A stretch of DNA of 64,000 nucleotides from Candidatus Thiopontia autotrophica (GTDB lineage: Bacteria; Pseudomonadota; Gammaproteobacteria; GCF-002020875), in the NCBI GenBank assembly GCA_014384675.1, contig JACNFK010000014.1, positions 1,213 to 65,212 of the forward strand, given 5' to 3'. How positions within the stretch are numbered: position 1 is the first letter of the stretch; each line of letters begins with the position of its first letter. The notes under the pieces were generated by a model, which had not been told where the DNA came from, searched no databases, and saw only the letters and a list, made by a program, of their open reading frames with translations. A program made the translations under genes and the position numbers. This document shows positions 11,120 to 62,554 of this stretch, piece after piece.

Positions 11120-11130
11120 CAGAGTTTACA

Positions 11131-13103: not shown

Positions 13104-13113
13104 AAGAGGGAGC

Positions 13114-13141: not shown

Positions 13142-13197
13142 CAATTACGGTGACAGTTTACTGAATACACTTAATTCACCACCTTCGGGCCATGTTT

Positions 13198-45882: not shown

Positions 45883-46478
45883 TGAGCACTAAAACAGAAG
45901 TGACAAAGAAAAGAGAGGACCAGACTGCTGGTGAGCACGGCAAGTGCATGCTCAACCGCCGTCAGTTCCTGATGTACAGTGGTGCTACTGCAGCCACTGC
46001 GAGCACTGTCTCTCTTACCCTGTTCCCAGGAACAGCCAAGGCTGTACAGACCAAGGCACGAGTGGTTGGTTATCCTCGCAAACTGGTTGGTAAGCTGAGT
46101 GAGATGAAGGATAACGTTCCAGTAATGATCAACTATCCAGATAATGGCAAGAACTCCATGGCTACCATGGTGAAGACTGGCGTTAAATGTGGTGGTGGAG
46201 TCGGTGCTGGACGTGACCTGGTTGCATTCAGTGCGCTCTGTACACATCAGGGTGGCCCACTGCTGGGACGTTACACTGCGGTAGATGAGCATAGAGTTAT
46301 GGGTTCATGCCCACTGCATCTATCTACCTACGATGTGACTCGCCATGGAATCATTGTCTCTGGTCAGGCTTATGAGAGTCTGCCACAGGTCCTCCTGGAG
46401 CTGGATGGAGATGATATCTACGCAGTTGGCATGATGGGGCTGATTTACGGCCGTAACCAGAACCTGATGGAATCTTAA
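45882..46478 (+). CDS. TAT-exported Rieske [2Fe-2S] small subunit (AioB/IdrB-like)
   Basis: RRQFL twin-arginine motif. The Rieske ligands are CTHQGGPL ... CPLHLSTY. The start overlaps the CCP2 stop. Confidence 0.8.
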   Translation: MSTKTEVTKKREDQTAGEHGKCMLNRRQFLMYSGATAATASTVSLTLFPGTAKAVQTKARVVGYPRKLVGKLSEMKDNVPVMINYPDNGKNSMATMVKTGVKCGGGVGAGRDLVAFSALCTHQGGPLLGRYTAVDEHRVMGSCPLHLSTYDVTRHGIIVSGQAYESLPQVLLELDGDDIYAVGMMGLIYGRNQNLMES

Positions 46479-46490
46479 GGAGAAAAAGAT

Positions 46491-49184
46491 ATGTCTACAA
46501 ATTATTATCTGCCAGAAGACTCCGCACCATTGCCACCCAAGCATGCGGAAGTCCTGACTACAGCCTGTGACTACTGTATTGTTGCCTGTGGCTATAAAGT
46601 CTATCGCTGGCCTGTCGGCTCTGGTGATGGTGGTCCAACTGCTGATGCAAATGCATTCGGTCAGGACTTCCCAACCAGCGCCCTTCAAAACTGGGTAGCC
46701 CCTGCACAGCATAATGTTGTTATGCACGGTGGTCGTCCACATAACGTGATCGTTGTCCCTGATAAGGACACTCAAGCGGTTAACAAAACCGGTGACTCCT
46801 CCATGCGTGGTGGTCTGCTTGCAGCCAAGTGCTACAATCCAAAGACCCCTACCCGTGATCGTCTCACCAATCCTATGGTACGTATCAACGGTACCCTTCA
46901 GCCAGTTAGTTGGGACTTCGCTCTCGATATTGCTGCTGAGGTTGGTAAGTATGTCATCAAGAACCATGGCGCTAACGCCTACTCGGTGAAGACATTCTCC
47001 TACCAGTATCTTGAGAACACCTATGCGATCAAGAAGTATGCACGTCGTAATGTAAATACTGCATCCTTCACCTTCCACGATACCCCATCTGACGTAACCT
47101 CTACACCAGGTTTCCGTGATGCCGGTTTCGATAACTTTGGCCCATCATATGATGACTGGGGAGATGCAGATGTACTGCAGATCCATGGTACAGATCCGTA
47201 TGAGACCAAGACCATTATCTATACGCAGTTCATCAAACCTGCGATTGAGCGTGGCATGAAGACCATCTGGCTGAATCCTCGTGAGACTGCCGGTATCGCC
47301 TATGCAAACAGCAAGGGTCCTGATCAGACTATCCACTTCCAGCTGACACTTGGTACCGATACGGTGCTTATGGGTGCAATTGCCCGTGTCATCTGTGAGA
47401 ACGGATGGGAGGACAAGGATTGGGTAAACAACTGGGTCAACAGCAAGTGGGAGACCTCTTCCGGCTTCGGTCAGGGAACCCGTAATACCCCATGGCAGTG
47501 GCGTACAACCTGGGGCATGTTCCAGCTCAAGGGTGGCTATAAAGGCTACAGCAAGTGGGTTCAGTCCAAGGATGAGTACAAGGTAGAGAATGCCGCGAAG
47601 ATCTGTGATGTTCCTGCTGCAGATATCATCAAGGCTGCTGAGTGGCTCACCAACAAGGGCGCTGGAACCAAGGCCTCCTTCGGTATCGAGAAGGGCTACT
47701 ACTGGTCCAACAATACCGGTAACACCAATGCTGTATCTTCACTGGCAACCATCTGTGGTGCCGGCGGACGTCCAGGACAGGTTGTTGGTCGCTTCGGTGG
47801 TCACCAGCGTGGTGGTGCAGGTGGCGGTAGCTATCCTCGTAACAAGTCTCCAGAGAAGCGTCCAGGTCGTCGTCGTCGTTCACTCGACACCGATCGTTAC
47901 CTGATCTCCGGTCACACCCGCTTTGCACACGTAATCGGCACTACCTGGATTCAGGCAATGACCGGTTCTCAGAGCCTCTACCACAAGTTCCATGAGCTGG
48001 TACTTGCCAACCCTAATCAGGTTAAATCCTATGATAAGGGTGATATCATCGAGACCCTGAAGAAGCGTGCTGATTCTGGTGGTATGGTTGTGATCAATCA
48101 GGATATCTATCTACGTGATCCAATCGGTGCCCGTTTCGCGGATGTGGTCTTCCCGGCTGCAACCTGGGGTGAGTCTGACTTCACCAGATCAAACGGTGAG
48201 CGTCGTCTTCGTATCTACAACAAGTTCTACGATGCCCCAGGACAGGCAATGCCAGACTGGTGGATTATTGGTGGAATGGCGAGCCGTATGGGCTACGAAG
48301 GCTTCGACTGGAAGAGCGCCAATGAGGTTGCGGAGGAGTCTACACGCTCCAGCCGTGGTAACCGTAAGGCATACCATATGATCAAGGTCGCGGCACATCG
48401 TGAGGGTAAAACCTTCCATGAGAAGATGCGTGAGTTTGGTACTACTGGTATCCAGGGACCAACAGTCTATAACTACAACACCGGTGAACTGCATGGAACC
48501 AAGCGTCTCCATGACACTACACTGACTGAAGCAGATATGGAGCGTATGGGTGTCACCCAGGGTGCCAACATGACCAACAAGAAGATGACGCACTTCAACT
48601 CTCAGACCGGTAAGGTCAATATCCAGAAGCATCCATGGAAACTGTTTGCAGACTTCCATGATTGGCTCTCTCCCAAGGGGGACGAGCTCTGGTTCTCGAA
48701 TGGTCGTATCAACGAGATCTGGCAGTCTGGATTTGATGATGTTGAGCGTCGTCCTTACGTGACACAGCGTTGGCCTGAGAACTGGGTAGAGATCCATCCT
48801 GATGATGCCAAGGCTCGTGGAATCGAGTCTGGTGATCAGGTCATGCTCTACTCTGATCGTGTGGTCGAGTCCAAGGACACCATCCTCGGTGTTCATGGCA
48901 ATGACTTCCAGTTCTCTGAGATGATGAAGAATGGTCATCTCAAGCTAACCAAGGCCGCAGTCACAGCCGTTGCAGTAATCGCTCCCCACCTGAAGAAGGG
49001 AATGATGTACGGCAATATGCTGGATATGCGCCAGCCCAACAATGCGTTGCAGAACCGCGTGGTCGATCAGATCAGTGGTAACTACAACTACAAGATGGGT
49101 GTGGCCAGGGTCAAGAAGATTGGTGAGTCGAAGTACAAGAAGGAGTTCCGCTCCATGTCCTTCGCACCACGTAATATCATCTAG
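46491..49184 (+). CDS. Molybdopterin (bis-MGD) oxidoreductase large subunit of the AioA/IdrA clade; an iodate reductase-type catalytic subunit is the favoured reading
   Basis: N-terminal LPPKHAEVLTTACDYCIVACGYKVYRWP contains the Cys-X2-Cys-X3-Cys 3Fe-4S motif diagnostic of arsenite oxidase-like enzymes. Further blocks (NVIVVPDKD, IWLNPRET, RFGGHQRGG) align with AioA. 897 aa. Confidence 0.85.
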   Translation: MSTNYYLPEDSAPLPPKHAEVLTTACDYCIVACGYKVYRWPVGSGDGGPTADANAFGQDFPTSALQNWVAPAQHNVVMHGGRPHNVIVVPDKDTQAVNKTGDSSMRGGLLAAKCYNPKTPTRDRLTNPMVRINGTLQPVSWDFALDIAAEVGKYVIKNHGANAYSVKTFSYQYLENTYAIKKYARRNVNTASFTFHDTPSDVTSTPGFRDAGFDNFGPSYDDWGDADVLQIHGTDPYETKTIIYTQFIKPAIERGMKTIWLNPRETAGIAYANSKGPDQTIHFQLTLGTDTVLMGAIARVICENGWEDKDWVNNWVNSKWETSSGFGQGTRNTPWQWRTTWGMFQLKGGYKGYSKWVQSKDEYKVENAAKICDVPAADIIKAAEWLTNKGAGTKASFGIEKGYYWSNNTGNTNAVSSLATICGAGGRPGQVVGRFGGHQRGGAGGGSYPRNKSPEKRPGRRRRSLDTDRYLISGHTRFAHVIGTTWIQAMTGSQSLYHKFHELVLANPNQVKSYDKGDIIETLKKRADSGGMVVINQDIYLRDPIGARFADVVFPAATWGESDFTRSNGERRLRIYNKFYDAPGQAMPDWWIIGGMASRMGYEGFDWKSANEVAEESTRSSRGNRKAYHMIKVAAHREGKTFHEKMREFGTTGIQGPTVYNYNTGELHGTKRLHDTTLTEADMERMGVTQGANMTNKKMTHFNSQTGKVNIQKHPWKLFADFHDWLSPKGDELWFSNGRINEIWQSGFDDVERRPYVTQRWPENWVEIHPDDAKARGIESGDQVMLYSDRVVESKDTILGVHGNDFQFSEMMKNGHLKLTKAAVTAVAVIAPHLKKGMMYGNMLDMRQPNNALQNRVVDQISGNYNYKMGVARVKKIGESKYKKEFRSMSFAPRNII

Positions 49185-49203
49185 ATCTGACCTTCGTGTT
49201 GTG

Positions 49204-49241
49204 AAAAACCCCGGTAGCTTAAATGCTACCGGGGTTTTTTT
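49204..49241. terminator. Strong bidirectional rho-independent terminator
   Basis: AAAAACCCCGGTAGC-TTAAAT-GCTACCGGGGTTTTTTT, a 15 bp perfect stem with an A-tract upstream and a T-tract downstream. Confidence 0.85.
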
Positions 49242-49478
49242 ATGGTGTTTGAATCCTTGTGAAAATTCTGAAAAAACTTTTTCAGAGGCTCCCTAACTAA
49301 CCATAGGTAGAAAAATTGATCCAGGTCAATTCAGTAGAATCAGTAATCAACTATAGTCTTAAGTGTCTGTTGTGATCTCCGATTATTATTCCTACATTAG
49401 TATGAAGAGGGAGCAGGCACCGCACCGGTTCACTTCTCCAAGCGAACCGGTGCATCTGTGTGAATGGTTGATGTAGTG

Positions 49479-49958
49479 CTAGAAGTGGGGATTTTGTAGG
49501 TGAAAGAAGGGTGTATCTTCCCCTTTTTTACCATTTAGCCTCTCTTCAGCCTCGTTGAGGATATCAATCATCTCAATCTGAAAATCGTTAAACGGTATCT
49601 CTTTGCCTTTGGTGCTACCCCAGTGGTCACGTACAAACTTTCCAAGCCTGTCTGTGATCTGGTCAGCATCTGCGAATAGTTTTTTTCCATAAGCGACTGT
49701 TTCAGCAGGGCAATCGGGTTGGCTGATGGTTGATTTAATGTGGTCAGTCTCTACGGAGAAGTACTCTGATAGAGAGGTGGTGAATTTTTGCAGCTCATTC
49801 ACCAGGTAGGGGATATCAAAATGACCACTACCACAATGGCTTCTGATTGCCGATAGTGTCCCTAACAGACTGTGTTGCTCATCAAGAAGATCTTGATCCA
49901 TCTTTATCTCCAATATCAATGGGTTGTGTATGGTCTGGATGAGATTCCTACTTCTCAT
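49479..49958 (-). CDS. Hypothetical protein. The true start is probably the internal Met at 49901, and hemerythrin-like His/Glu spacing is unconfirmed.
   Basis: An ORF with no recognisable family by eye. Scattered H/E/D pairs (DEQHSLL, HCGSGHF, RDHWGS) are seen. Confidence 0.3.
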   Translation of the reverse strand: MRSRNLIQTIHNPLILEIKMDQDLLDEQHSLLGTLSAIRSHCGSGHFDIPYLVNELQKFTTSLSEYFSVETDHIKSTISQPDCPAETVAYGKKLFADADQITDRLGKFVRDHWGSTKGKEIPFNDFQIEMIDILNEAEERLNGKKGEDTPFFHLQNPHF

Positions 49959-50107
49959 GCCATCCTGTCCAAGGGTTTTAACTTTACTGTTTTAGTTGTT
50001 TATGGCCAACCAAAATAGTAGCTATTAATAGTAGTTTTTCAAAGTAAATTGCTGGCAGTCATGATGATAGATCGAGGCATCTGCTTAATTAAGGTACAAT
50101 TAGGCAG

Positions 50108-50608
50108 ATGCAAAATAGTTACCAATCTGTTGAGACGGGACTGAATCCGAAGATTCCCCCATTTATTGCAGCACCACTGAAAATGGTACCCAATGTGGTC
50201 CATACGCAGCTGTTGGTTGCGGTGCTTAACCATCTGTTCAAGCAGCAGCTGAGTGAGGGTGATCTCGATTTTCTGGAGTCGCGTACTGCAGTGATTCGCC
50301 TGCTGGATGCCGGGGTGGAGTTTCGTTTCACCAAGGGGCGCAAGGGGTTGGTGGCCCACTCCGGAGAGGGGCCGATTGACCTTGCTATTAGTGGTGATCT
50401 CTACGATTTTTTGCAGTTATCACTGGGCAAGGAGGATCCTGATACTCTCTTTTTCCAGCGTCGTATTCGGCTTGAGGGTGATGTAGAGTTGGGGCTGGAG
50501 ACCAAAAATCTTATATACGGACTGGATGTCGAGGCTCTATCGATTCCTGCCCCACTGCGCATGGCCTTTAACAAGGCTATGAGCTTCTATCAGACAAGAT
50601 CAAAGTAA
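50108..50608 (+). CDS. ubiT: SCP2-domain ubiquinone biosynthesis accessory factor UbiT (YhbT)
   Basis: EDPDTLFFQRRIRLEGDVELGLETKNL closely matches the E. coli UbiT block QDPDTLFFQRRLVIEGDTELGLYVKNL. Confidence 0.75.
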   Translation: MQNSYQSVETGLNPKIPPFIAAPLKMVPNVVHTQLLVAVLNHLFKQQLSEGDLDFLESRTAVIRLLDAGVEFRFTKGRKGLVAHSGEGPIDLAISGDLYDFLQLSLGKEDPDTLFFQRRIRLEGDVELGLETKNLIYGLDVEALSIPAPLRMAFNKAMSFYQTRSK

Positions 50609-50681
50609 CCAACCTTTTTTATCAGGAAATTTCCCTCGCTCCTCTACTGATTCCCCGGGGGATCCGATATACTTTCGCCCC

Positions 50682-51614
50682 ATGGCGCTGACCGACTATA
50701 TCCACACATTTGGAAGCACAATGCAGGCCCGTTTTGGCGAGCGGGTGCACAAGGTGTCGATTGATGCCGGCTTCACCTGCCCAAACATCGATGGCTCCAA
50801 GGGGCGTGGCGGCTGTACTTTTTGTAATAATATCTCTTTTAGCCCACATGGCAGAAATCCACGAACTGTTGCCGAGCAGATTGAGTCCGGCAGGCAGGTG
50901 ATTCGCAAACGTACGGGCGCACAGAGTTATATTGCCTATTTTCAGGCCTACACCAATACCTATGCAGACCCGGATGTTCTGGACAAGATGTATCGAGAGG
51001 CATTGGATGAGCCGGATGTGGTTGGTCTTTCGATTGGCACACGCCCAGATTGTGTCCCAGATCCGGTACTGGATCTGTTGGCAGGTTATCGTGAGGAGGG
51101 TTATGAGATATGGCTGGAGCTTGGTCTGCAATCCGCCTTTGATGAGACCCTTGATCGAGTCAATCGACTTCACTACTTTTCGGAATATCGTCAGGCTGTA
51201 AGGTCGGCACAACTGCGGGGGATTCAGCTCTGCACTCATCTTATTGCAGGACTCCCTGGTGAAAATGCATACCATTATCGCGAGAGCATGGAGCGAGTGC
51301 TCGAGTTGGGAACTGATGGATTTAAATTTCACCCTCTGCATGTGGTCAAGGGGACAATGTTGGCCAATGAGTGGCGCAGTGGGGATTTTGTCTCATTGAC
51401 CCAGGAGGAGTATGTGAACGTTGTGGTCAACTGGATTGAACAGGCCCCGAATAGCATGGTCTACCACCGTCTTACTGCTACAGCATCGGAAGATATTCTG
51501 CTGGATCCTGCGTGGTGCAGTAAGAAATGGCTGGTTCTCAATGCCATTGAGGATGAGTTGGCGCGCCGTCAGGTAGATACGGATAATCTGATATCACAGG
51601 TAAAAGCGGTATGA
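50682..51614 (+). CDS. Radical SAM protein of the TIGR01212 (YhcC-like) family
   Basis: CPNIDGSKGRGGCTFC cluster motif, typical of the YhcC family. 310 aa. Confidence 0.75.
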   Translation: MALTDYIHTFGSTMQARFGERVHKVSIDAGFTCPNIDGSKGRGGCTFCNNISFSPHGRNPRTVAEQIESGRQVIRKRTGAQSYIAYFQAYTNTYADPDVLDKMYREALDEPDVVGLSIGTRPDCVPDPVLDLLAGYREEGYEIWLELGLQSAFDETLDRVNRLHYFSEYRQAVRSAQLRGIQLCTHLIAGLPGENAYHYRESMERVLELGTDGFKFHPLHVVKGTMLANEWRSGDFVSLTQEEYVNVVVNWIEQAPNSMVYHRLTATASEDILLDPAWCSKKWLVLNAIEDELARRQVDTDNLISQVKAV

Positions 51615-52873
51615 GTACCATGCAGTATGACATTGTTGTAATTGGTGGAGGTTCTGCCGGCCTCAGTTTTGGCTGCTCATTGGCTGAGAGTGGTATTGGG
51701 GTGTTGATCCTGGAGCGACAGGATCTGGATTCGCTACAGAACCCGAAAATGGACGGCCGAGATTTTGCCAACACCCACCTCTCAAAAAAGGTTATGCAAG
51801 AGTTGGGGGTCTGGCAGCGCATTCCGGCAGAGGAGATAGCCCCATTAAAGGCGGCCAGAGTGGTGGATGGCGACTCTGATTATGCACTACGTTTCGATAC
51901 CAGTGGACGCTCGATAGATGAGCTTGGATATCTCATATCCAACCATGTAATTCGCAAAGCTCTTTATGAGCAGGTCTCAGAGGCGCGTAATGTAGAGATT
52001 CGTTGCGGTGTTGAGGTGACAGCCCTGAGCACAAATAGTGGTTCCGCATCAGTAACACTCTCTACAGGAGAGCAGATAGAGACAGAGATGGTGGTATCTG
52101 CCGACAGCAGATTCTCCGGTACGCGCAGAATGATGGGGATATCGGCAGATATGTTCGATTTTGGTCGCACCGCAATAGTCTGTCGTGTCACTCATGAAAA
52201 GCCCCACCATGAAACTGCCTATGAGTGTTTTCGTTATAGCCGTACTCTGGCCCTGCTTCCATTGAATGGTAACCGTGCCTCAGTGGTAATTACCGTCCCC
52301 TCTAATCAGGCGAAGCGATATATGGAGATGACAGTTGATGATTTCAACACAACCATCGAGGAGGGGCTGGGTGGAGAGTTTGGCAGAATGGAGCTGGAGG
52401 GCGAGCGTTTCTCATATCCGCTGGTGGCGGTTCATGCCAACCACTTTGTGGGCACCCGTTATGCTCTGCTGGGGGATGCGGCAGTTGGCATGCATCCGGT
52501 AACTGCACATGGATTCAATCTTGGCCTGCGTGGACAGAATACCCTGGCAACGGCCATGAAGAGTGCGATCAGCAGAGGTGAACCGTTCTATGGTCACTCT
52601 GTGCTGGGTCACTATGAGCGCCAGCAGATGGTTGCCAGTCGTCCCATCTATCATGGAACAAATGCCATTGTGCGTCTCTTTACCAATGATAGTGCCGCGG
52701 CACGACTATTGAGAAAGGCGGCACTGCGCTTTGGCAACAACTTCCCTCCGGTGCAGTGGGCAATTATTCACAAGCTGACTGAGGTTGGGGGGACAGGTGG
52801 GATCGATCTCCATTTGCTGGATGGAATTACCGAGCGGATCCCGAAGAAATTTCCTAAATACTCAACCCGTTAG
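51611..52873 (+). CDS. FAD-dependent ubiquinone-biosynthesis hydroxylase (UbiH/UbiF/VisC/Coq6 family)
   Basis: YDIVVIGGGSAGLSFGCSLA dinucleotide fold, and the DAAVGMHPVTAHGFNLGL motif typical of UbiH-family monooxygenases. Confidence 0.8.
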   Translation: MSTMQYDIVVIGGGSAGLSFGCSLAESGIGVLILERQDLDSLQNPKMDGRDFANTHLSKKVMQELGVWQRIPAEEIAPLKAARVVDGDSDYALRFDTSGRSIDELGYLISNHVIRKALYEQVSEARNVEIRCGVEVTALSTNSGSASVTLSTGEQIETEMVVSADSRFSGTRRMMGISADMFDFGRTAIVCRVTHEKPHHETAYECFRYSRTLALLPLNGNRASVVITVPSNQAKRYMEMTVDDFNTTIEEGLGGEFGRMELEGERFSYPLVAVHANHFVGTRYALLGDAAVGMHPVTAHGFNLGLRGQNTLATAMKSAISRGEPFYGHSVLGHYERQQMVASRPIYHGTNAIVRLFTNDSAAARLLRKAALRFGNNFPPVQWAIIHKLTEVGGTGGIDLHLLDGITERIPKKFPKYSTR

Positions 52874-52969
52874 GGAGCCGCTGAAAAAGCTTAATGGCTG
52901 GGGTGATCTGAATCAAATTTTGCTGTTATAGCATTCGATTCTGCAGGGTGAATCAACTACAATCCCCCG

Positions 52970-53968
52970 ATGGAATTGGTATGTCCGGCAGGTAATCTTC
53001 CCTCACTGAAAGCAGCGGTCGATAATGGCGCTGATGCGGTATATATGGGGTTTAAGGATGACACGAACGCCAGAAATTTTGCCGGGCTCAATTTTAATGA
53101 GAATAATATCGGGCAGGGGATTGAGTATGCTCACAGCCATGGCGCCAGAATGTTTGCAGCCATCAACACCTTCCCACAACCGAGCGGCTGGGAGCGCTGG
53201 ACCAGTGCAGTAGACCGTGCCGCCGAGGCCGGGATTGATGCAGTTATCCTGGCAGATATGGGAATTCTCGACTACGCAGCCAACCGCTGGCCTGATCTGA
53301 AACTGCACCTCTCGGTTCAGGGGTCGGCAACCAACTATGAGGCGATCAGCTTCATGCATAAAACATTCGGCATAAGCAGGGTGGTTATCCCCCGGGTACT
53401 CTCTGCCCCGCAGGTACGTCATCTTGCAGAGCACACCCCAGTTCCACTTGAGTTGTTTGGTTTTGGCAGTCTCTGTGTGATGGTGGAGGGGCGTTGTCTG
53501 CTCTCCTCCTATGCAACAGGCAGATCTCCAAACACCTATGGTGCCTGCTCTCCGGGTAGCCATGTGGAGTGGATTGAGCGTGATGATGGCGGCATGGAGA
53601 CCAGGCTGGGCGGTATTCTGGTGGACAGTTATAACGCTGGCGAGAGTGCTGGCTATCCAACCATCTGCAAGGGTCGTTTCGAGGTCCAGGGCAAGGAGGG
53701 GTACGCAATTGAGGAACCCACTAGTCTGAATACCCTGGAGCTGTTGCCAGAGATGATGGATATGGGGATTGCTGCAATCAAGATTGAGGGGCGTCAGCGC
53801 AGCCCTGCCTATGTGGCGCAGGTAACCAGGGTTTGGCGCGAGGCTATTGATGCCTGCAAACGTAATCCTGAGGCATTCCAGGTCAAGGATGCATGGAATG
53901 CAGAGTTAAGCAAGGTGGCGGAGGGGGCACAGACTACACTTGGTGCCTACCACCGTTCGTGGCAATAG
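52970..53968 (+). CDS. ubiU: O2-independent ubiquinone hydroxylase subunit UbiU (peptidase U32 family)
   Basis: MELVCPAGNLPSLKAAVDNGADAVYMGFKDDTNARNFAGLNF is nearly identical to the E. coli UbiU N-terminus. Confidence 0.85.
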   Translation: MELVCPAGNLPSLKAAVDNGADAVYMGFKDDTNARNFAGLNFNENNIGQGIEYAHSHGARMFAAINTFPQPSGWERWTSAVDRAAEAGIDAVILADMGILDYAANRWPDLKLHLSVQGSATNYEAISFMHKTFGISRVVIPRVLSAPQVRHLAEHTPVPLELFGFGSLCVMVEGRCLLSSYATGRSPNTYGACSPGSHVEWIERDDGGMETRLGGILVDSYNAGESAGYPTICKGRFEVQGKEGYAIEEPTSLNTLELLPEMMDMGIAAIKIEGRQRSPAYVAQVTRVWREAIDACKRNPEAFQVKDAWNAELSKVAEGAQTTLGAYHRSWQ

Positions 53969-53970
53969 AG

Positions 53971-54867
53971 ATGAAGATCTCACTGGGCCCAATCCTCTAC
54001 TTCTGGCCTGAGGAGGATATTAGATCGTTCTACCGCAAGGTGGCAGAGTCTCCGGTAGATATTGTCTATCTGGGAGAGACCATCTGTTCCAAGCGCCGCT
54101 CTCTTAATACAGACCAGTGGATTGAGATCGCACAGCAACTCAAGACGGCAGGGAAAGAGGTGGTGCTCTCTACATTGGCACTGCTGGAGGCTGAATCGGA
54201 GCTTAAAACCCTGAGAAGAATATGTGGCAATGGCGAGTTTCTGGTGGAGGCAAATGACCTTGCGGCTGTTAATCTGCTCTCCGGGCAGGGCGCAAATTTT
54301 GTGGTCGGACACTCGGTAAATATCTATAACCAGGGCACCATGAAGGTGTTGGCTGAGGCTGGAATGAGTCGCTGGGTTCTTCCGGTCGAGCTATCTCGGG
54401 ATACCTTGCGCGAACTGCAGGCAGAGCGCCCGGATTTGGTAGAGACAGAGGTCTTCGCATGGGGAAGAATCCCATTGGCATATGCTGCCCGTTGCTATAC
54501 AGCACGCCACTATGAGCTACCAAAAGATGACTGCCAGTATAGATGTCTGGCTGATCCTGATGGAATGTTGTTGAATACCAAGGAGGGTGAGCCGTTCCTT
54601 ACCATCAATGGAATCCAGACCCAGTCGGCACAGAGCTGTAATTTGTTGGGTGCAATGGAGGAGATGCGTGAACTTGGGGTGGATGTAGTAAGAATCAGTC
54701 CGCAGTCACAATTTACTCCAGAGATAATCGCCCTGTTTGATCAACTTCAGCGTGGTGACATATCCGTCAAAGATGCAATGGAGCAGGCCGCAAGTTATTT
54801 GCCCAATGGTGGGGTGGATGGTTACTGGCGTGGTGAGGCGGGGATAGCGCAGACAGAACCGGCCTGA
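53971..54867 (+). CDS. ubiV: O2-independent ubiquinone hydroxylase subunit UbiV (peptidase U32 family)
   Basis: MKISLGPILYFWPEEDIRSFY...VYLGETICSKRRS matches the E. coli UbiV N-terminus. The ATG at 53971 directly follows the ubiU stop. Confidence 0.85.
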   Translation: MKISLGPILYFWPEEDIRSFYRKVAESPVDIVYLGETICSKRRSLNTDQWIEIAQQLKTAGKEVVLSTLALLEAESELKTLRRICGNGEFLVEANDLAAVNLLSGQGANFVVGHSVNIYNQGTMKVLAEAGMSRWVLPVELSRDTLRELQAERPDLVETEVFAWGRIPLAYAARCYTARHYELPKDDCQYRCLADPDGMLLNTKEGEPFLTINGIQTQSAQSCNLLGAMEEMRELGVDVVRISPQSQFTPEIIALFDQLQRGDISVKDAMEQAASYLPNGGVDGYWRGEAGIAQTEPA

Positions 54868-54884
54868 CACTGAAGTCAGAATGG

Positions 54885-55757
54885 TTACAGGATGACACTC
54901 GCCATCTTGCGCCGCCATGTCCCTGCTACTGCCGGATCCTGGATTGATTCCAGTATTGCCAGCATCCCTTTGCGTGCGCCATCATCACCATATTCACGGT
55001 CTCTCATCATCAGGTTTAAGAGCTCACCAAGCGCACTCTCCGTCTCGCCGTCAACCACCATTCTGGCAGCAAGACGGTAGCGTGATGCGCTATCGTTTGG
55101 ATCTTTCTCAATAAGTGTCATCAGCTCATCTGCTAACGGGGCATCTGCAGCTGCTTTTACAAACAGAAGTCTGTTCTCAAGCTCCTTGATCTCCGGTGCC
55201 TCTCTCTCATTGACAGGGAGGGCGGCAACAGCCTGCTCAACACTCTCATAATCACCCTTGGCAAATAGTGCACCAATCAGGTCCATCCGTACCCCGGGGT
55301 TATCGGGATCCTCCTGATTAGCCTGTTGCAGAAGCGTGACTGCTTCGTCAACATTGCCTTGCTTGACCAGCTCACCAGCCTTGGCTCTTAATTTGTCGGA
55401 TTCACTTTCAATATGGTTGCCCAGAACCTTGCGTACATTTCCCTCTGGCTGTGCTCCCATAAACTCATCAACCACCTCTCCATTACGGAATATTTTTACT
55501 GTCGGAACACTGCGTGCATTATATTTTCCAGCTAGTGGCTGATTATCATCCACATTGACCTTTGCCAAAATGAATTTTCCACCAAACTCCTCGGCCAGCT
55601 TGGTGACTATCGGCATTAAGGTTTTACACGGATTGCACCAGGGGGCCCAGAAATCGACCATCACCGGAACAGTAAAGGATTTTTTAACTACCTCATCCTC
55701 AAAGTTGCTCTCATTTACATCAACAATATATGTTGAAGGCTGGTTGTCTGTACTCAT
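54885..55757 (-). CDS. cnoX: Thioredoxin-domain / TPR chaperedoxin (CnoX/YbbN)
   Basis: Thioredoxin fold with a WAPWCNPCK active-site-like motif, followed by TPR repeats. The start is taken at MSTDNQ (55757), giving a protein of about 290 aa like E. coli YbbN. Confidence 0.7.
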   Translation of the reverse strand: MSTDNQPSTYIVDVNESNFEDEVVKKSFTVPVMVDFWAPWCNPCKTLMPIVTKLAEEFGGKFILAKVNVDDNQPLAGKYNARSVPTVKIFRNGEVVDEFMGAQPEGNVRKVLGNHIESESDKLRAKAGELVKQGNVDEAVTLLQQANQEDPDNPGVRMDLIGALFAKGDYESVEQAVAALPVNEREAPEIKELENRLLFVKAAADAPLADELMTLIEKDPNDSASRYRLAARMVVDGETESALGELLNLMMRDREYGDDGARKGMLAILESIQDPAVAGTWRRKMASVIL

Positions 55758-55800
55758 TTTTCTGTTCCTGAAATTGTCCGGATAGTGGGTGTGGCGAGAC

Positions 55801-56178
55801 CTACTTGTCCCACCGCTTGAATCGTTTGCGGCAGTATGCCAGAAGCTCGTCATAACTGGTGAAGTAACGTCTGAAATGTTTCTCAGCCGGTTCATCATAT
55901 TCGCACCAATCGTTATCGTACTCCCTGCAGACAGTTGGGCGTTGGTCATAAATGGTGCAACTGCCACCGTTGCCGATGAATTGACAACGGTTATTTATTA
56001 TCAGAAACCAGCCATCTTCATCCTGATAAATCTCTATATCCCGATGGGCAATCTGCCAGAGCAGGGTCTGAAAGTCATCTTTGCTGCGTGGAGTATCAAC
56101 CTGTTGAGTAAAGTAACTGCAACATTTGGTTCCACTGCAGAAGCTACATTTGTTTTCTGTGGTGATTTTTGTCATCAC
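55801..56178 (-). CDS. YkgJ-family (UPF0153) zinc/iron-chelating CxxCxxCC domain protein
   Basis: CSFCSGTKCC motif plus further Cys residues. 125 aa. Confidence 0.55.
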   Translation of the reverse strand: MMTKITTENKCSFCSGTKCCSYFTQQVDTPRSKDDFQTLLWQIAHRDIEIYQDEDGWFLIINNRCQFIGNGGSCTIYDQRPTVCREYDNDWCEYDEPAEKHFRRYFTSYDELLAYCRKRFKRWDK

Positions 56179-56495: not shown

Positions 56496-56534
56496 AGGTA
56501 GAGGCCAACGAGTTTTGATGTAGAATCAGTTTTC

Positions 56535-56705
56535 GATCTCTCGGGTGTCCTCTCTCCAGGTCTGGAGATGGGAAGAATCGGGAAAGCGGTGTAAATCCGC
56601 TACGTGCCCAGCGCTGTAATGGGGATCTCTCAACCAGAACCCACTGATCCTGTGATCGGGAAGGGGGTTGAGAGAGTTGAACCAGAGTCAGAAGACCGGC
56701 CTGAG
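56535..56705 (+). promoter_or_regulatory. Cobalamin (adenosylcobalamin) riboswitch upstream of bluB
   Basis: Conserved core GGGAAGAATCGGGAAAGCGGTGTAAATCCGCTACGTGCCCAGCGCTGTAATGGGGA and a B12-box-like CCCACTGATCCTGTGATCGGGAAGGGGG. Confidence 0.75.
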
Positions 56706-56764
56706 AGAGTAACAGGAGATGCCGTGGAGTGGCCTCTTCAGATGTTTTTCATAAGGGGACTATA

Positions 56765-57460
56765 ATGGAAAAACATGCTTTTTCAGATGATGAACGTGCA
56801 GCTGTATACAAGGCAATTTTTAATCGCCGCGATGTCAGAGGTGAATTTTTGGCAGATCCGGTGCCGGATGATGTTCTTGGACGGGTGCTCAATGCGGCGC
56901 ACCATGCCCCCTCGGTTGGCTTTATGCAACCGTGGGATTTTATGGTGATTCGTTCCATGGATGTGCGCAAAAGAGTTCATGAACTATTCAACAAGGCGCA
57001 TGCCGAGGCGACAGATATGTTTCCTGAGGAGAAGCAGGATACCTACCGTAACCTCAAGCTGGAGGGGATTCTGGAGTCACCGCTGAATCTGGTAATAACC
57101 TGTGACCGTTCCCGTACCGGGCCTGTAGTAATAGGCCGTACCCATATGGAGTGGATGGATCTCTATAGCAGTGTCTGTGCAGTGCAAAATTTCTGGCTGG
57201 CAGCACGCAGTGAGGGGTTGGGTGTGGGCTGGGTCAGCATTATGGATCCGGATGCATTGACAGAGACTCTGGAGCTACCGGAATCTGTGGTGCCGGTGGC
57301 ATACCTCTGTGTTGGTTATGTATCACAATTTCATGAAAAGCCTGAACTGGAGAAGGCAGGATGGCTACCCAGAATGCCGCTGGATGAGGTGATCCATTTT
57401 GACCAGTGGGGAGAGAGGGAGAAAGATACCGAATTTCTTGATGTTATACGGCAACTGTAA
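56765..57460 (+). CDS. bluB: 5,6-dimethylbenzimidazole synthase (BluB, nitroreductase fold)
   Basis: FSDDERAAVYKAIFNRRDVRGEFLADPVPDDVLGRVLNAAHHAPSVGFMQPWDF is the BluB signature. The ATG at 56765 has an AAGGGGA RBS. Confidence 0.85.
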   Translation: MEKHAFSDDERAAVYKAIFNRRDVRGEFLADPVPDDVLGRVLNAAHHAPSVGFMQPWDFMVIRSMDVRKRVHELFNKAHAEATDMFPEEKQDTYRNLKLEGILESPLNLVITCDRSRTGPVVIGRTHMEWMDLYSSVCAVQNFWLAARSEGLGVGWVSIMDPDALTETLELPESVVPVAYLCVGYVSQFHEKPELEKAGWLPRMPLDEVIHFDQWGEREKDTEFLDVIRQL

Positions 57461-57530: not shown

Positions 57531-58433
57531 GTGTGGAGTACAGTTATGAGTGACAGCAACCCCTTTGACCTTAATGATGATTCTGCCTACCAGGCCTGGC
57601 GTGAGCGCAAGCTGAGAGAGGCCCCTCAAGAGGTGGGTGACCTGATTGTCGAGATCAACGATCCGAGAACAATTACAAACTCCGAACATGATGCAATCCT
57701 TGATCGTGTGCGTCGATTCAATATGGCGGTCTATGTCAGCAATATTGGGGATATGGAGGGGACCCACATTCCACGTGCCGTCGGGATGCGCTTTGGCTGT
57801 AACAATATCAATCGTAATCGTGGTGCAGAGGATGATGGGGTAACTGCAATTACGATACAGGCTGATGAGATCCACTCACCCTATATTCCATACTCCAACA
57901 AGGAGATCCACTGGCATACCGATGGATACTATAATCGATTGGATCTGCAGAACTATGCACTGCTGCTCCACTTTGTACGTCCCGCTATGGAGGGTGGGGA
58001 GAATGCGGTGATGGATCACGAGATGGCCTATCTGCTGATGCGTGATGAGAATCCGGATTATGTCTGTGCCCTGATGCGTGAGGATGCAATGATCATCCCC
58101 AACCATGTGGTGGATGGGTGTGAGCTGCGCCCGGAACGTGCCGGCCCGGTGTTTCTGGAGACGGCAGCAGGAAATCTGCATATGCGTTATACCATGCGCA
58201 AGCGCAACATCATCTGGAACAGCGATCCACTGGTACAAGAGGCGGTTGCATGGCTGGAGAATCTGCTAAAGAGTGATTGTGATCAGATATTCCGCGCAAC
58301 CATGCAGTCAGGATGGGGCTTTGTCTCCAATAATGTTCTGCATGATCGAACCGGCTTTACCGATGATCCTGATCCGGCGAAGAAGCGTCTGATGTATCGG
58401 GCACGTTATTATGATCGTGTTCACAACACCTAG
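57531..58433 (+). CDS. TauD/TfdA-family Fe(II)/2-oxoglutarate-dependent dioxygenase
   Basis: HWHTDGYY is an HxD iron-binding motif, with a later His. 300 aa. The substrate is unknown. Confidence 0.6.
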   Translation: MWSTVMSDSNPFDLNDDSAYQAWRERKLREAPQEVGDLIVEINDPRTITNSEHDAILDRVRRFNMAVYVSNIGDMEGTHIPRAVGMRFGCNNINRNRGAEDDGVTAITIQADEIHSPYIPYSNKEIHWHTDGYYNRLDLQNYALLLHFVRPAMEGGENAVMDHEMAYLLMRDENPDYVCALMREDAMIIPNHVVDGCELRPERAGPVFLETAAGNLHMRYTMRKRNIIWNSDPLVQEAVAWLENLLKSDCDQIFRATMQSGWGFVSNNVLHDRTGFTDDPDPAKKRLMYRARYYDRVHNT

Positions 58434-60132: not shown

Positions 60133-60202
60133 TATAATGTTTTTGGTGGTGCGAAAGCACCTTTTGTTTCTAATTTTTCATGATCCCTTAGGGAGGTTTT
60201 TC

Positions 60203-61597: not shown

Positions 61598-61613
61598 GGA
61601 AAGGAGAATAGAT

Positions 61614-62339
61614 ATGTCTGATAAGATTTATTCAACCAAGCTTCAAGACAAGATCGAGCGTAGCGGAATCTTGATGATGCTCTTCGTGATGGTTGCTGTT
61701 TCAGTTGGTGGCCTGGTAGAGATCGTGCCACTTTTCACTATTGATGAGACCATGGAGCACAATGCCAACCCGGAAATCGTCTGGCAGCGTAAGGACGGCG
61801 ATACTCTGGATACATGGAAGGCTGGTGATGGTATCCGTCCATATACTGCTCTTGAGCTGGCAGGGCGTGATGTCTATATCCGTGAGGGGTGCTATCTGTG
61901 TCACTCACAGATGATCCGTCCATTCCGTGATGAGAAGGAGCGTTATGGTCACTACTCACTGGCTTCCGAGTCAATGTATGACCATCCATTCCAGTGGGGA
62001 TCAAAGCGTACCGGACCTGATCTGGCTCGTGTCGGTGGCAAGTACTCTGATGAGTGGCACCGCCAGCATATGATGGCACCACGCTCTGTTGTTCCTGAGT
62101 CAGTCATGCCAAACTATCCTTGGTTGGCAGAGAACAAACTGGATGACTTTGATGTTGAGAGTCATATGAAGGTGATGCAGATGATGCCGGGCGTGGGTCA
62201 CGTACCATATACCGATGCTGATATCGACGGTGCGAATGCCAAGATGGCGGGCAAGACTGAAATGGATGCAGTAATTGCATACCTTCAGGTGCTCGGAACC
62301 ATGGCCAAGCTCGACTACAACAAGACCTATCGCAAATAA
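61614..62339 (+). CDS. ccoO: cbb3-type cytochrome c oxidase subunit II (monoheme)
   Basis: TM anchor plus a [12 protein letters not shown] heme motif. Confidence 0.93.
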
Positions 62340-62353
62340 CGGATGTTATTAGC

Positions 62354-62554
62354 ATGAATAAGGATACTAGCTACTTCTTTACCGACTGGTCTGCAATGAC
62401 AGTAAACGATTGGGTGGGAATGATCGTTACTGTGACTGTGGCCGTCGTTATGGTTGTAGCCTATATCCTGGTCTTTCATCCAAAGAACAAAGAGCATTTA
62501 GAATCTCAACGCTATCTCGTTGACGGGGTAGACGGAGAAGGAGAAAACAAATGA
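62354..62554 (+). CDS. ccoQ: cbb3-type cytochrome c oxidase subunit IV
   Basis: 66 aa single-TM protein located between ccoO and ccoP. Confidence 0.7.
   Translation: MNKDTSYFFTDWSAMTVNDWVGMIVTVTVAVVMVVAYILVFHPKNKEHLESQRYLVDGVDGEGENK

What the first reader, a model, noticed from the sequence alone, without database searches (positions are those of the whole stretch)
50108..54867. Ubiquinone cluster combining an O2-dependent hydroxylase, O2-independent UbiT-UbiU-UbiV and a TIGR01212 radical SAM enzyme on one strand
ubiT, a YhcC-like radical SAM gene (CPNIDGSKGRGGCTFC), a UbiH-family flavin monooxygenase, ubiU and ubiV are co-directional and tightly spaced, with a 4 nt overlap between the radical SAM and monooxygenase genes. 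In E. coli ubiT is divergent from ubiUV, and yhcC is unlinked. Placing an uncharacterized radical SAM enzyme between them hints at a role in anaerobic ubiquinone synthesis. It also fits an organism that switches between O2 (cbb3) and alternative acceptors.
Basis: partly seen in the sequence, partly recalled or inferred. Interest (0 to 1): 0.55.

Follow-up and report, generated by a model that had tools for sequence, protein, structure and literature searches.

The report
Low-oxygen ubiquinone and tRNA gene cluster
Five co-directional genes combine the oxygen-dependent (UbiM) and oxygen-independent (UbiT/UbiU/UbiV) ways of finishing ubiquinone with a radical SAM enzyme whose family is now known to edit a tRNA wobble base without oxygen. 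The pairing of that enzyme with ubiUV is strongly conserved in sulfur-oxidising bacteria, and is best read as a shared low-oxygen toolkit rather than a new ubiquinone step.

Summary
Window 50108-54867 (+) encodes ubiT, a TIGR01212 radical SAM gene, ubiM, ubiU and ubiV. All are intact and above NCBIfam equivalog cut-offs. The rSAM and ubiM genes share an ATGA overlap.

In 42 of 44 informative loci whose rSAM is at least 54% identical, the gene sits in a ubiU-ubiV cluster, usually immediately upstream. None of 32 more distant homologues (including Shewanella and Firmicutes) is linked; nor is E. coli yhcC.

The enzyme is no longer uncharacterised, though. E. coli YhcC/MnmL converts cmnm5s2U to nm5s2U in tRNA anaerobically, replacing O2-dependent MnmC. 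The linked clade is sister to E. coli YhcC, keeps all 49 family-invariant residues, and shows no accelerated divergence. It persists where ubiUVT is deleted or absent.

FNR-type boxes precede the rSAM or ubiT in 27 of 48 related loci, and nrdDG and fnr-like genes recur nearby. In this window the only FNR-like box lies before ubiU, not ubiT.

Best reading (about 0.6): an oxygen-adaptation module in which the rSAM is a tRNA enzyme co-located with UQ hydroxylases. A direct role in UQ synthesis remains possible (about 0.13).

The parts
50108..50608 (+). ubiT: SCP2-domain accessory factor of O2-independent ubiquinone synthesis
   Evidence: NCBIfam NF047962 equivalog 124.5 bits (cut-off 46.9); Pfam SCP2. 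37% identical to E. coli UbiT.
50682..51614 (+). mnmL/yhcC-type radical SAM gene (TIGR01212), member of the ubiUV-linked clade
   Evidence: TIGR01212 349.2 bits (cut-off 180); Radical_SAM + Radical_SAM_C. The three family-invariant Cys (window C33/C45/C48 in CPNIDGSKGRGGCTFC) and all 49 family-invariant residues are kept. AF2 model pLDDT 88; best PDB folds are Elp3 rSAM domains, TMq 0.65-0.70. 43% identical to E. coli YhcC.
51611..52873 (+). ubiM: O2- and FAD-dependent ubiquinone ring hydroxylase, overlapping the rSAM stop by 4 nt
   Evidence: NF006593 UbiM equivalog 524.4 bits (cut-off 420). ATGA overlap. The same rSAM-ubiM overlap is found in relatives L001 and L085-L090.
52903..52916 (.). 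FNR/ANR-type box GTGATCTGAATCAA (1 mismatch to TTGAT-N4-ATCAA) in the ubiM-ubiU spacer
   Evidence: The same box (TTGATCTGACTCAA) with identical 41-nt spacing to a TACAAT hexamer is conserved in L001, although the rest of the spacer has diverged.
52958..52963 (+). -10-like hexamer TACAAT, 41 nt downstream of the FNR box and 6 nt before the ubiU ATG (inferred promoter; would give a leaderless or near-leaderless ubiU mRNA)
   Evidence: Sequence and conservation with L001. Not picked up by the generic sigma-70 scan, which requires a -35 hexamer. Inference only.
52970..53968 (+). ubiU: U32-family [4Fe-4S] subunit of the O2-independent hydroxylase
   Evidence: NF047963 554.4 bits (cut-off 440). 61% identical to E. 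coli UbiU. Cluster ligands C169, C176, C193 and C232 are all conserved.
53971..54867 (+). ubiV: U32-family [4Fe-4S] partner subunit, start 2 nt after the ubiU stop
   Evidence: NF047965 406.7 bits (cut-off 275), aligned from residue 28 of the longer ORF. 47% identical to E. coli UbiV. The CXnCX12CX3C ligands are conserved as C39/C175/C188/C192. Junction sequence.
57531..58433 (+). TauD/TfdA-family gene of unknown function: a possible loosely associated member, since its homologues directly follow ubiV in 18 related loci
   Evidence: Pfam TauD 49 bits. Family 4 in the neighbour clustering. In this window it is separated from ubiV by 2.7 kb and lies behind a cobalamin riboswitch and bluB. The association is weak.

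Best explanation
This is an oxygen-adaptation module for two Fe-S-based, O2-independent 'back-up' chemistries, plus the O2-dependent ubiquinone hydroxylase.

Components:
- UbiT (SCP2) presents polyprenyl-phenol intermediates.
- UbiM (FAD, O2) hydroxylates the ring when O2 is available.
- The UbiU-UbiV heterodimer (two [4Fe-4S] clusters) does so without O2. It is transcribed from its own FNR-type promoter inside the cluster.
- The radical SAM gene is an MnmL/YhcC orthologue. It uses a [4Fe-4S]/SAM-derived radical to strip the carboxymethyl group from cmnm5(s2)U34 of tRNA, giving nm5(s2)U without O2. That is the job the FAD/O2-dependent MnmC oxidase domain does in air.

The rSAM sits with the ubi genes because both are needed under the same low-O2 regime and are co-regulated and co-inherited. 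In the wider clade it is the first gene of an FNR-box-preceded rSAM-ubiU-ubiV operon. In this lineage ubiM was inserted behind the rSAM, which splits the unit into ubiT-rSAM-ubiM (no recognisable FNR box) and FNR-driven ubiUV.

Shown here: gene identities, conserved ligands, synteny, FNR-type boxes and clade structure. Inferred: the tRNA substrate of this clade, FNR dependence, and the promoter.
For: Identity:
- All five genes exceed equivalog cut-offs.
- UbiU and UbiV keep all eight experimentally defined Cys ligands.

Family function:
- E. coli YhcC is required in vivo, and sufficient in vitro, for anaerobic cmnm5s2U-to-nm5s2U conversion, and it is FNR-activated.
- Bacillus and Streptococcus MnmL act at the same step.

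Phylogenetic bracketing:
- The linked clade is sister to the E. coli/Shewanella clade inside a Firmicutes/Aquificae outgroup.
- It keeps 49 of 49 family-invariant residues and R/K at E. coli K21 and R279, the proposed RNA cleft.
- Only 5 positions discriminate the clades, and at 3-4 of them the linked clade keeps the outgroup state.
- It is closer to the outgroup (43% identity) than the E. coli clade is (40%).
- The predicted fold is closest to the Elp3 tRNA-U34 rSAM domain.

Published supplementary tables:
- They place ubiUV-adjacent homologues (Thioploca, Thiolapillus, Sulfuricella, Thiobacillus denitrificans) in the same SSN group as E. coli YhcC.
- Thiolapillus has one copy per genome.
- T. 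denitrificans also has MnmC, the E. coli situation.

Independence from ubiUV:
- The rSAM is retained intact where ubiU-ubiV-ubiT is precisely missing (L008 versus L007).
- It is also retained in close relatives with no adjacent ubiT or ubiUV (L085-L090).
- E. coli ubiUV plus ubiT suffice at 21% O2.

Low-O2 regulon signature:
- TTGAT-N4-ATCAA boxes with at most 1 mismatch lie upstream of the rSAM (20 loci) or ubiT (15 loci) in 27 of 48 linked loci, versus 2 of 32 unlinked loci.
- nrdD-nrdG, Crp/Fnr regulators and NnrS recur next to the cluster.
- In the window the box before ubiU is conserved in sequence and spacing with L001.
- This split mirrors E. coli logic: strictly FNR-dependent ubiUV, an FNR-independent distal ubiT promoter (ubiTp1), and constitutive O2-dependent hydroxylases.
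Against: - No member of the linked clade has been tested, and the tRNA assignment rests on homology. The authors of the MnmL work themselves warn that the family contains paralogous subgroups.
- The rSAM-ubiU juxtaposition is unusually tight (overlaps of 4-26 nt in many loci) and is conserved across two classes. Its divergence tracks UbiU (r = 0.75). This is more than co-regulation alone usually produces.
- In this lineage the rSAM is translationally coupled to another UQ hydroxylase gene (ubiM) even where ubiUV is absent.
- In this window there is no FNR-type box before ubiT or the rSAM, so 'anaerobic induction' of the rSAM is not supported here.
- The NJ tree has no support values, and its sampling is limited to 80 loci.
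- I could not search whole genomes for second copies or for MnmC.
Confidence: 0.6

Rival explanations
1. The ubiUV-linked radical SAM enzyme takes part directly in O2-independent ubiquinone synthesis, either instead of or in addition to tRNA editing. It might act as a radical initiator, a redox partner or a maturase for UbiU-UbiV.
For: - In 42 of 44 informative loci the rSAM is in a ubiUV cluster. In 31 of them ubiU starts within 300 nt, often overlapping the rSAM.
- The clade spans Gamma- and Betaproteobacteria and forms a single 50%-identity cluster, set apart from other TIGR01212 proteins by a bit-score gap of 438 versus 316.
- Mirror-tree correlation with UbiU is r = 0.75.
- The rSAM is coupled by a 4-nt overlap to ubiM in this lineage.
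- UbiD also neighbours the cluster in 3 loci.
- From background knowledge, the UbiUV reaction has not been reconstituted in vitro, so missing partners are conceivable.
Against: - The characterised relatives on both sides of the clade act on tRNA.
- No invariant residue is lost and evolution is not accelerated.
- The rSAM is kept where ubiUVT is deleted or absent.
- In E. coli, ubiUV and yhcC are unlinked, and pBAD-ubiUV needs only UbiT to replace UbiIHF in air.
- No rSAM-U32 fusion appears among the best 150 representatives.
Confidence: 0.13
2. The linkage has no functional or regulatory meaning. An ancestral chance juxtaposition was frozen by overlapping genes and spread by vertical descent and horizontal transfer of the block. 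The rSAM is an ordinary MnmL whose position is a historical accident.
For: - Beta- and gammaproteobacterial members are intermixed in one clade, consistent with transfer of the block as a unit.
- Gene overlaps make separation costly.
- The family's neighbours differ freely elsewhere: arcB and gltB in enterics, mnmM in Firmicutes.
- The ubiM insertion and the ubiUVT deletions show that the block is being remodelled.
Against: - FNR-type boxes sit in front of the rSAM as first gene in 20 loci, far above the roughly 0.01 per region expected by chance (my own calculation for uniform base composition).
- Recurrent co-location with other anaerobic-substitute genes, nrdDG and fnr-like, points to selection for shared regulation.
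- The order is kept over about 36% protein divergence.
Confidence: 0.15
3. The linked clade has drifted to a different substrate unrelated to both UQ and cmnm5s2U. It might act on another RNA nucleoside or a small molecule needed under anoxia.
For: - The authors of the family study caution against annotation transfer between subgroups.
- Three tabulated carriers lack MnmC and any clustered methyltransferase.
- An unassignable class I methyltransferase is inserted between the rSAM and ubiU in 7 loci.
- The window protein is unusually acidic, pI 5.3 against a clade mean of 8.0.
Against: - Full conservation of the family-invariant residues, including the basic cleft positions.
- Same SSN group as E. 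coli YhcC in the published tables.
- pI is also low in the Firmicutes/Aquificae outgroup (which contains no experimentally tested member), so it does not discriminate.
Confidence: 0.07

Closest known systems
E. coli ubiT / ubiU-ubiV locus (O2-independent UQ pathway; Pelosi 2019 PMC6747719; Arias-Cartin 2023 PMC10470549; Pseudomonadota survey PMC11707229)
   Same: - The same three proteins, all above equivalog cut-offs, with all eight Fe-S cysteine ligands.
- ubiV directly follows ubiU.
- An FNR-type box lies upstream of ubiU.
   Different: - Here ubiT is co-directional and separated from ubiUV by two extra genes (rSAM, ubiM), so it fits none of the compact architectures 1-3 of PMC11707229.
- No FNR box precedes ubiT.
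- An O2-dependent hydroxylase is embedded in the locus.
E. coli YhcC / Bacillus MnmL (TIGR01212; bioRxiv 10.64898/2026.05.18.725915 and 10.1101/2023.12.21.572861)
   Same: - Family membership at 349 bits.
- The Cys triad, 49 invariant residues and R/K at the proposed RNA-cleft positions.
- Elp3-like fold.
- Association with low-O2 regulation in relatives.
   Different: - 43% identity to YhcC, in a sister clade.
- The neighbours are ubiT/ubiM/ubiUV rather than arcB-gltB (E. coli) or mnmM (Firmicutes).
- No FNR box upstream in this window.
- Activity is untested.
Neisseria meningitidis UbiM (single FAD monooxygenase doing all three UQ hydroxylations)
   Same: Hits the UbiM equivalog model at 524 bits, above its 420 cut-off. 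The Neisseria enzyme replaces UbiIHF in E. coli.
   Different: - Regioselectivity here is unknown.
- The gene is translationally coupled to a radical SAM gene and embedded in a ubiTUV locus.
- In the held literature I found no report of ubiM adjacent to ubiUV or to a TIGR01212 gene.
rSAM-ubiU-ubiV operons of sulfur and iron oxidisers (SUP05/Thioglobus, Sedimenticola, Thiotrichaceae, Thiobacillus, Gallionellaceae; tabulated but not discussed in Data S5 of 10.1101/2023.12.21.572861)
   Same: The same rSAM clade (54-85% identity), with the same ubiU-ubiV pair downstream and ubiT nearby.
   Different: - In those loci the rSAM directly abuts ubiU and is usually the FNR-box-preceded first gene.
- Only this window and L001 carry ubiM between them, with the FNR box relocated to the ubiM-ubiU spacer.
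Elp3 (Elongator catalytic subunit, tRNA U34 cm5 modification)
   Same: Best structural match of the predicted rSAM domain (Foldseek E 1e-13 to 1e-10, TMq 0.59-0.70) and best PDB sequence match (E 2e-8).
   Different: It has no acetyltransferase (KAT) domain, identity is only 17-19%, and the chemistry is different (side-chain removal, not addition).

Membership tests
UbiU (O2-independent UQ hydroxylase subunit) | Sequence above the NCBIfam equivalog cut-off, full-length match | tested here: met
   NF047963 554.4 bits against 440; residues 1-332 on profile positions 1-331.
UbiU (O2-independent UQ hydroxylase subunit) | Four [4Fe-4S] ligand cysteines (E. coli C169, C176, C193, C232) | tested here: met
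   All four align to Cys in the window protein. Ligand identities are from PMC6747719.
UbiV | Equivalog score, CXnCX12CX3C ligands, and a gene directly downstream of ubiU | tested here: met
   NF047965 406.7 bits against 275. C39/C175/C188/C192 are conserved. The start lies 2 nt after the ubiU stop.
UbiU-UbiV | O2-independent hydroxylation of UQ intermediates | not testable with these tools
   Needs UQ quantification in anaerobic cultures of mutants.
UbiT | SCP2 domain matching the UbiT equivalog, located at a ubiUV locus | tested here: met
   NF047962 124.5 bits against 46.9; Pfam SCP2. It lies 2.4 kb upstream of ubiU.
UbiM (FAD monooxygenase UQ hydroxylase) | Score above the UbiM-specific equivalog cut-off and higher than for the UbiH/UbiF/UbiI models | tested here: met
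   NF006593 524.4 bits against 420. The UbiH model scores 258.9, below its 392 cut-off. FAD_binding_3 domain.
UbiM (FAD monooxygenase UQ hydroxylase) | Which ring positions it hydroxylates | not testable with these tools
   Needs complementation of E. coli ubiI, ubiH and ubiF mutants.
MnmL/YhcC (TIGR01212 tRNA-modification radical SAM) | Equivalog score and Radical_SAM + Radical_SAM_C architecture | tested here: met
   TIGR01212 349.2 bits against 180; PF04055 + PF16199.
MnmL/YhcC (TIGR01212 tRNA-modification radical SAM) | Cluster-binding cysteines and the family-invariant residues, including basic residues at the proposed RNA cleft (E. coli K21, R279) | tested here: met
   49 of 49 invariant positions are kept in the linked clade. 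K21 is R/K and R279 is K.
MnmL/YhcC (TIGR01212 tRNA-modification radical SAM) | Orthology with the characterised E. coli enzyme (single copy, same subgroup) | tested here: inconclusive
   It falls in a sister clade in an unsupported NJ tree. Published tables put ubiUV-adjacent homologues in the same SSN group as YhcC and list one copy in Thiolapillus. The whole genome of this organism could not be searched.
MnmL/YhcC (TIGR01212 tRNA-modification radical SAM) | Conversion of cmnm5s2U-tRNA to nm5s2U-tRNA | not testable with these tools
   Needs nucleoside LC-MS or an in vitro assay.
MnmL/YhcC (TIGR01212 tRNA-modification radical SAM) | FNR-type control, as for E. coli yhcC | tested here: not met
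   There is no TTGAT-N4-ATCAA at up to 2 mismatches between 49886 and 52902 in this window. The feature is met in 20 related loci upstream of the rSAM. It is a property of the E. coli gene, not a family-defining one.
FNR/ANR-activated ubiUV promoters | FNR consensus box at activating distance upstream of ubiU | tested here: met
   GTGATCTGAATCAA at 52903-52916, 41 nt before TACAAT. Box and spacing are conserved in L001. Actual FNR dependence was not tested.

The most novel reading that the evidence does not exclude
The ubiUV-linked TIGR01212 clade is a dedicated or moonlighting component of O2-independent ubiquinone ring hydroxylation. It would be a radical SAM partner that UbiU-UbiV need, or greatly benefit from, in UQ-only sulfur oxidisers. 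That would also explain why the UbiUV reaction has resisted reconstitution.
Probability: 0.13. Interest if true: 0.8.

Novelty: new variant of a known kind. Interest (0 to 1): 0.42.

Why it matters
Every gene belongs to a known family, so this is not a new system. Two things are still worth a specialist's attention.

First, a large clade of sulfur- and iron-oxidising Gamma- and Betaproteobacteria, including SUP05, places the MnmL/YhcC-type radical SAM gene as first gene of an FNR-box-preceded rSAM-ubiU-ubiV operon. The adjacency appears in a published supplementary table (Data S5 of 10.1101/2023.12.21.572861). No paper in the held library interprets it. It gives a cheap, sharp experiment: one deletion and two read-outs, UQ and tRNA nucleosides. 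That experiment either adds a component to the still unreconstituted UbiUV reaction, or shows that bacteria bundle unrelated O2-independent substitutes (UQ hydroxylation, tRNA editing, often nrdDG) into one transferable low-oxygen cassette.

Second, this window shows a derived form of the locus. The O2-dependent hydroxylase UbiM is wedged in and translationally coupled to the rSAM, and the FNR promoter has moved to ubiUV. In effect this is a complete two-regime 'ring hydroxylation' locus.

Tried and rejected
- **Second copies.** I wanted to search for a second TIGR01212 copy, or for MnmC, in the same genomes. As weak evidence only, none of the 48 linked-clade assemblies reappears among the 32 lower-identity hits.
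- **Isoelectric point and net charge as a proxy for RNA binding.** Not informative. The linked clade (mean pI 8.0) resembles the E. coli clade (7.65), but the Firmicutes/Aquificae outgroup is acidic (6.1) and the window protein is an outlier at 5.3.
- **rSAM-U32 gene fusions.** None appear among the best 150 representatives at 50% clustering. The few long hits (452-581 aa) are distant, at 37-42% identity. The search was not exhaustive.
- **The methyltransferase between the rSAM and ubiU in 7 loci, as a possible MnmM or UbiG analogue.** It gives only generic class I hits (NodS-like, weak UbiG, CmoM; PDB YtkW, Rv0560c), so it cannot be assigned.
- **The RsmC-like methyltransferase next to the rSAM in L085.** It belongs to the local purB synteny and lies 5 kb away in L088, so I did not treat it as linked.
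- **Generic sigma-70 and terminator scan of 49200-55200.** Counts equal the shuffled expectation. There is no promoter call before ubiT and no convincing internal terminator.
- **Rfam scan.** Nothing inside the cluster.
- **PDB sequence search for the TauD-like neighbour.** No hit.
- **Literature.** Searches for yhcC or TIGR01212 together with ubiT/U/V found no paper that discusses the linkage.

Full report
**1. What is there**

The stretch 50108-54867 carries five intact, co-directional genes. NCBIfam equivalog models identify them as follows:
- UbiT: 124.5 bits, cut-off 46.9.
- A TIGR01212 radical SAM protein: 349.2 bits, cut-off 180.
- UbiM: 524.4 bits, cut-off 420. The UbiH model scores 258.9, below its own cut-off, so 'UbiM' is the precise name.
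- UbiU: 554.4 bits, cut-off 440.
- UbiV: 406.7 bits, cut-off 275.

Pfam agrees: SCP2; Radical_SAM + Radical_SAM_C; FAD_binding_3; Peptidase_U32 twice.

The junctions are 73 nt, an ATGA overlap (rSAM/ubiM), 96 nt, and 2 nt (ubiU TAG 53966-53968, ubiV ATG 53971). The 53893 start of the listed ubiV ORF is only the longest-ORF start. The eight cysteines shown experimentally to hold the two [4Fe-4S] clusters of E. coli UbiU and UbiV are all conserved.

ubiT is divergent from ubiUV at 3.30 Mb, and yhcC lies about 50 kb away beside arcB. ccoNOP lies at 60137-63468. The window's rSAM protein is identical to an NCBI entry from a gammaproteobacterial MAG. The nearest species-level relative is a Piscirickettsiaceae MAG (L001).

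**2. The radical SAM family is no longer uncharacterised**

NCBIfam now titles TIGR01212 'tRNA modification radical SAM protein MnmL/YtqA'. A 2026 preprint shows that E. coli YhcC is required in vivo, and active in vitro, for anaerobic conversion of cmnm5s2U34 to nm5s2U34 in tRNA. It replaces the FAD/O2-dependent oxidase domain of MnmC, and it is FNR-activated. The Bacillus and Streptococcus homologue MnmL acts at the same step. Neither paper's text mentions ubiquinone genes.

**3.

A scan of one genome per GTDB species returned 80 loci. I mapped the window's UbiT, UbiM, UbiU and UbiV onto them and measured gaps.
- Of the 48 loci whose rSAM is at least 54% identical to the query, 44 have at least 1.5 kb of downstream sequence.
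- In 31 of these 44, ubiU starts within 300 nt on the same strand. Many overlap by 4-26 nt.
- In 40 of the 44, ubiU lies within 3 kb.
- Two more have the order ubiU-ubiV-rSAM.
- Only L008 and L028 lack the link.
- ubiT lies within a few kb in most loci, in any orientation.
- None of the 32 loci at 51% identity or below has ubi genes within 10 kb. These include Shewanella, Rubrivivax, Rhodocyclales, Aquificae, Firmicutes and a planctomycete.

The carriers include SUP05/Thioglobus, Sedimenticola, Thiotrichaceae, Chromatiales, Acidiferrobacteraceae, Oleiphilaceae and Hahellaceae. Among Betaproteobacteria they include Gallionellaceae, Thiobacillus and Sulfurimicrobium.

Pairwise divergence of the rSAM tracks that of UbiU (r = 0.75), compared with 0.86 for UbiU against UbiV. 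At 50% clustering the whole clade collapses to one representative (438 bits), with the next at 316 bits.

**4. Orthologue or new function?**

An NJ tree without support values splits the proteobacterial sequences into two sister clades. One contains E. coli YhcC and is unlinked. The other is linked to ubiUV. Each holds both Beta- and Gammaproteobacteria, and the outgroup is Firmicutes, Aquificae and Planctomycetota.

The linked clade shows no sequence sign of a changed function:
- It keeps all 49 residues that are invariant across the family.
- It keeps R/K at the two basic positions (E. coli K21, R279) that the YhcC authors place at the mouth of a putative RNA-binding cleft.
- Only five positions separate the clades, and at three or four of them the linked clade retains the outgroup residue.
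- Its mean identity to the outgroup (43%) exceeds that of the E. coli clade (40%).

So there is no accelerated evolution and no loss of conserved sites of the kind expected after a change of substrate. The AF2 model (pLDDT 88) is closest to the rSAM domain of Elp3, another tRNA-U34 enzyme.

The supplementary gene-cluster table of the 2023 MnmL preprint already lists UbiU, UbiV and UbiT as neighbours of the family member in four organisms. It places them in the same network group as E. coli YhcC.
- Thioploca ingrica, Thiolapillus brandeum and Sulfuricella denitrificans are scored as lacking MnmC.
- Thiobacillus denitrificans is scored as having an MnmC1/C2 fusion.
- Thiolapillus is listed with a single family copy.

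**5. The rSAM does not depend on ubiUV being present**

- L008 is collinear with L007 (a Sedimenticola MAG), except that the 2.6-kb ubiU-ubiV-ubiT segment between the rSAM and cysG is missing. The rSAM remains intact.
- In relatives 79-86% identical to the window protein, the rSAM-ubiM pair is found with no ubiT or ubiUV nearby, and it has the same 4-nt overlap (L085-L090).
- In another relative group, ubiT-rSAM is followed by yicC and an integrase instead of ubiUV (L082-L084).
- In E. coli, plasmid-borne ubiUV replaces UbiI/H/F at 21% O2 and needs only UbiT.

These points argue against an obligatory UbiUV-rSAM partnership. I cannot exclude that ubiUV has simply moved elsewhere in those genomes.

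**6. A low-oxygen regulatory signature**

I scanned 300 nt upstream of each gene for TTGAT-N4-ATCAA with at most one mismatch.
- 20 linked loci have a box upstream of the rSAM, and 15 have one upstream of ubiT. Together that is 27 of 48 loci.
- Only 2 of 32 unlinked loci have one.
- My own estimate of the chance expectation, assuming uniform base composition, is about 0.01 per region.

This extends the published finding that FNR sites precede ubiU or ubiT in 87% of ubiTUV loci. In this clade the site sits in front of the rSAM, as the operon's first gene.

Clustering of neighbouring ORFs shows what else recurs next to the cluster:
- nrdD-nrdG in 6 loci
- Crp/Fnr-family regulators in 5
- NnrS in 5
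- B12-dependent RNR
- UbiD in 3
- a TauD-family gene directly after ubiV in 18

Like the rSAM and UbiUV, nrdDG is an O2-independent substitute for an O2-dependent enzyme.

**7. What is particular to this window**

Only the window and L001 carry ubiM between the rSAM and ubiU. In the window there is no FNR-type box at up to two mismatches upstream of ubiT or the rSAM.

There is a one-mismatch box (GTGATCTGAATCAA, 52903-52916) in the ubiM-ubiU spacer, 41 nt before a TACAAT hexamer. L001 has the same box and the same 41-nt spacing in an otherwise diverged spacer. That places the box centre about 60 nt upstream of the inferred start, a class-I-like geometry. It would make ubiU mRNA leaderless or nearly so in the window. 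This is inference only.

The generic promoter and terminator scan adds nothing.

The likely expression logic is ubiT-rSAM-ubiM from an FNR-independent promoter and ubiUV from an FNR-type promoter. This parallels E. coli, where ubiUV is strictly FNR-dependent, ubiT has an additional FNR-independent promoter, and the O2-dependent hydroxylases are constitutive.

**8. Verdict**

The most economical explanation (about 0.6) is that the rSAM is an MnmL/YhcC orthologue bundled with the ubiquinone hydroxylation genes into a low-oxygen adaptation module.

A direct role in UQ synthesis is not excluded (about 0.13). Its best support is the tightness and breadth of the synteny, together with the persistent coupling of the rSAM to UQ hydroxylase genes of either type.

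All parts are known families. The architecture is a new variant of the ubiTUV locus. The underlying adjacency appears only as uninterpreted rows in a supplementary table.

Noticed in passing
window 56526-56718 (+), with 56729-57460 and 57531-58433: A cobalamin riboswitch (Rfam RF00174, 108.8 bits) precedes bluB (5,6-dimethylbenzimidazole synthase, 280.8 bits) and a TauD/TfdA-family gene of unknown function.
   Followed up: partly
L002 5385-6314 and 17 other related loci; window 57531-58433: An uncharacterised TauD-family protein of about 300 aa directly follows ubiV in 18 of the rSAM-ubiUV loci. It has no PDB sequence relative. It is a candidate additional member of the cluster, and it is odd for an 'anaerobic' locus because the family is normally O2-dependent.
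   Followed up: partly
L002 2671-3303; also L004, L005, L006, L014, L047, L048: A 210-aa class I SAM methyltransferase is inserted between the rSAM and ubiU (in L014, between ubiT and ubiU), mostly in Thiotrichaceae-type loci. It could not be assigned to the MnmM, UbiG or UbiE families. A cultured relative, Thioploca, is scored as lacking MnmC, so it might be the missing nm5s2U methylase.
   Followed up: partly
L014, L015, L018, L020, L026, L028, L034 (nrdD and/or nrdG; six loci each); L026, L035, L038, L040 (Crp/Fnr family, five copies in four loci): Anaerobic ribonucleotide reductase genes (nrdD and its activase nrdG), Crp/Fnr-family regulator genes and NnrS genes recur beside the rSAM-ubiUV-ubiT cluster. 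This suggests a transferable low-oxygen gene island.
   Followed up: partly
L001 13370-15337: In the closest relative a 655-aa PAS-GGDEF protein is inserted between ubiU and ubiV, leaving a gap of about 2 kb. This is a rare exception to the published rule that ubiU and ubiV are under 500 bp apart in 99.6% of loci.
   Followed up: no
L008 versus L007, around 10900-13700: There is a precise absence of the ubiU-ubiV-ubiT segment between the rSAM and cysG in one MAG closely related to the Sedimenticola MAG L007, with the rSAM retained.
   Followed up: yes
window 45882-49184 (+), 49203-49240, 49316-49329: An arsenite-oxidase-like Rieske and molybdopterin pair (AioB 115 bits, AioA 381.9 bits, just above cut-off) ends in a strong 16-bp terminator hairpin. 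A one-mismatch FNR-type box (TTGATCCAGGTCAA) with no obvious downstream gene lies just beyond it. The same 897-aa gene is upstream of the cluster in L001.
   Followed up: no
window 50682-51614: The window's rSAM protein is the most acidic of its clade (pI 5.3, net charge -11, against a clade mean pI of 8.0).
   Followed up: no
window, whole: Matches to TTGAT-N4-ATCAA at up to 2 mismatches are enriched over the whole 64 kb: 61 found against 42 +/- 6 in shuffles, and none of 100 shuffles reached 61.
   Followed up: no
window 49479-49958 (-): A 159-aa ORF divergent from ubiT has no Pfam or NCBIfam match.
   Followed up: no
window 54885-55967 (-) and 55801-56178 (-): A thioredoxin-TPR (YbbN/CnoX-like architecture) gene and a CxxCxxCC zinc/iron-chelating-domain gene lie just downstream of ubiV. 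The same pair neighbours the rSAM-ubiM pair in relatives L088-L089, and CxxCxxCC alone does so in L082-L087.
   Followed up: no
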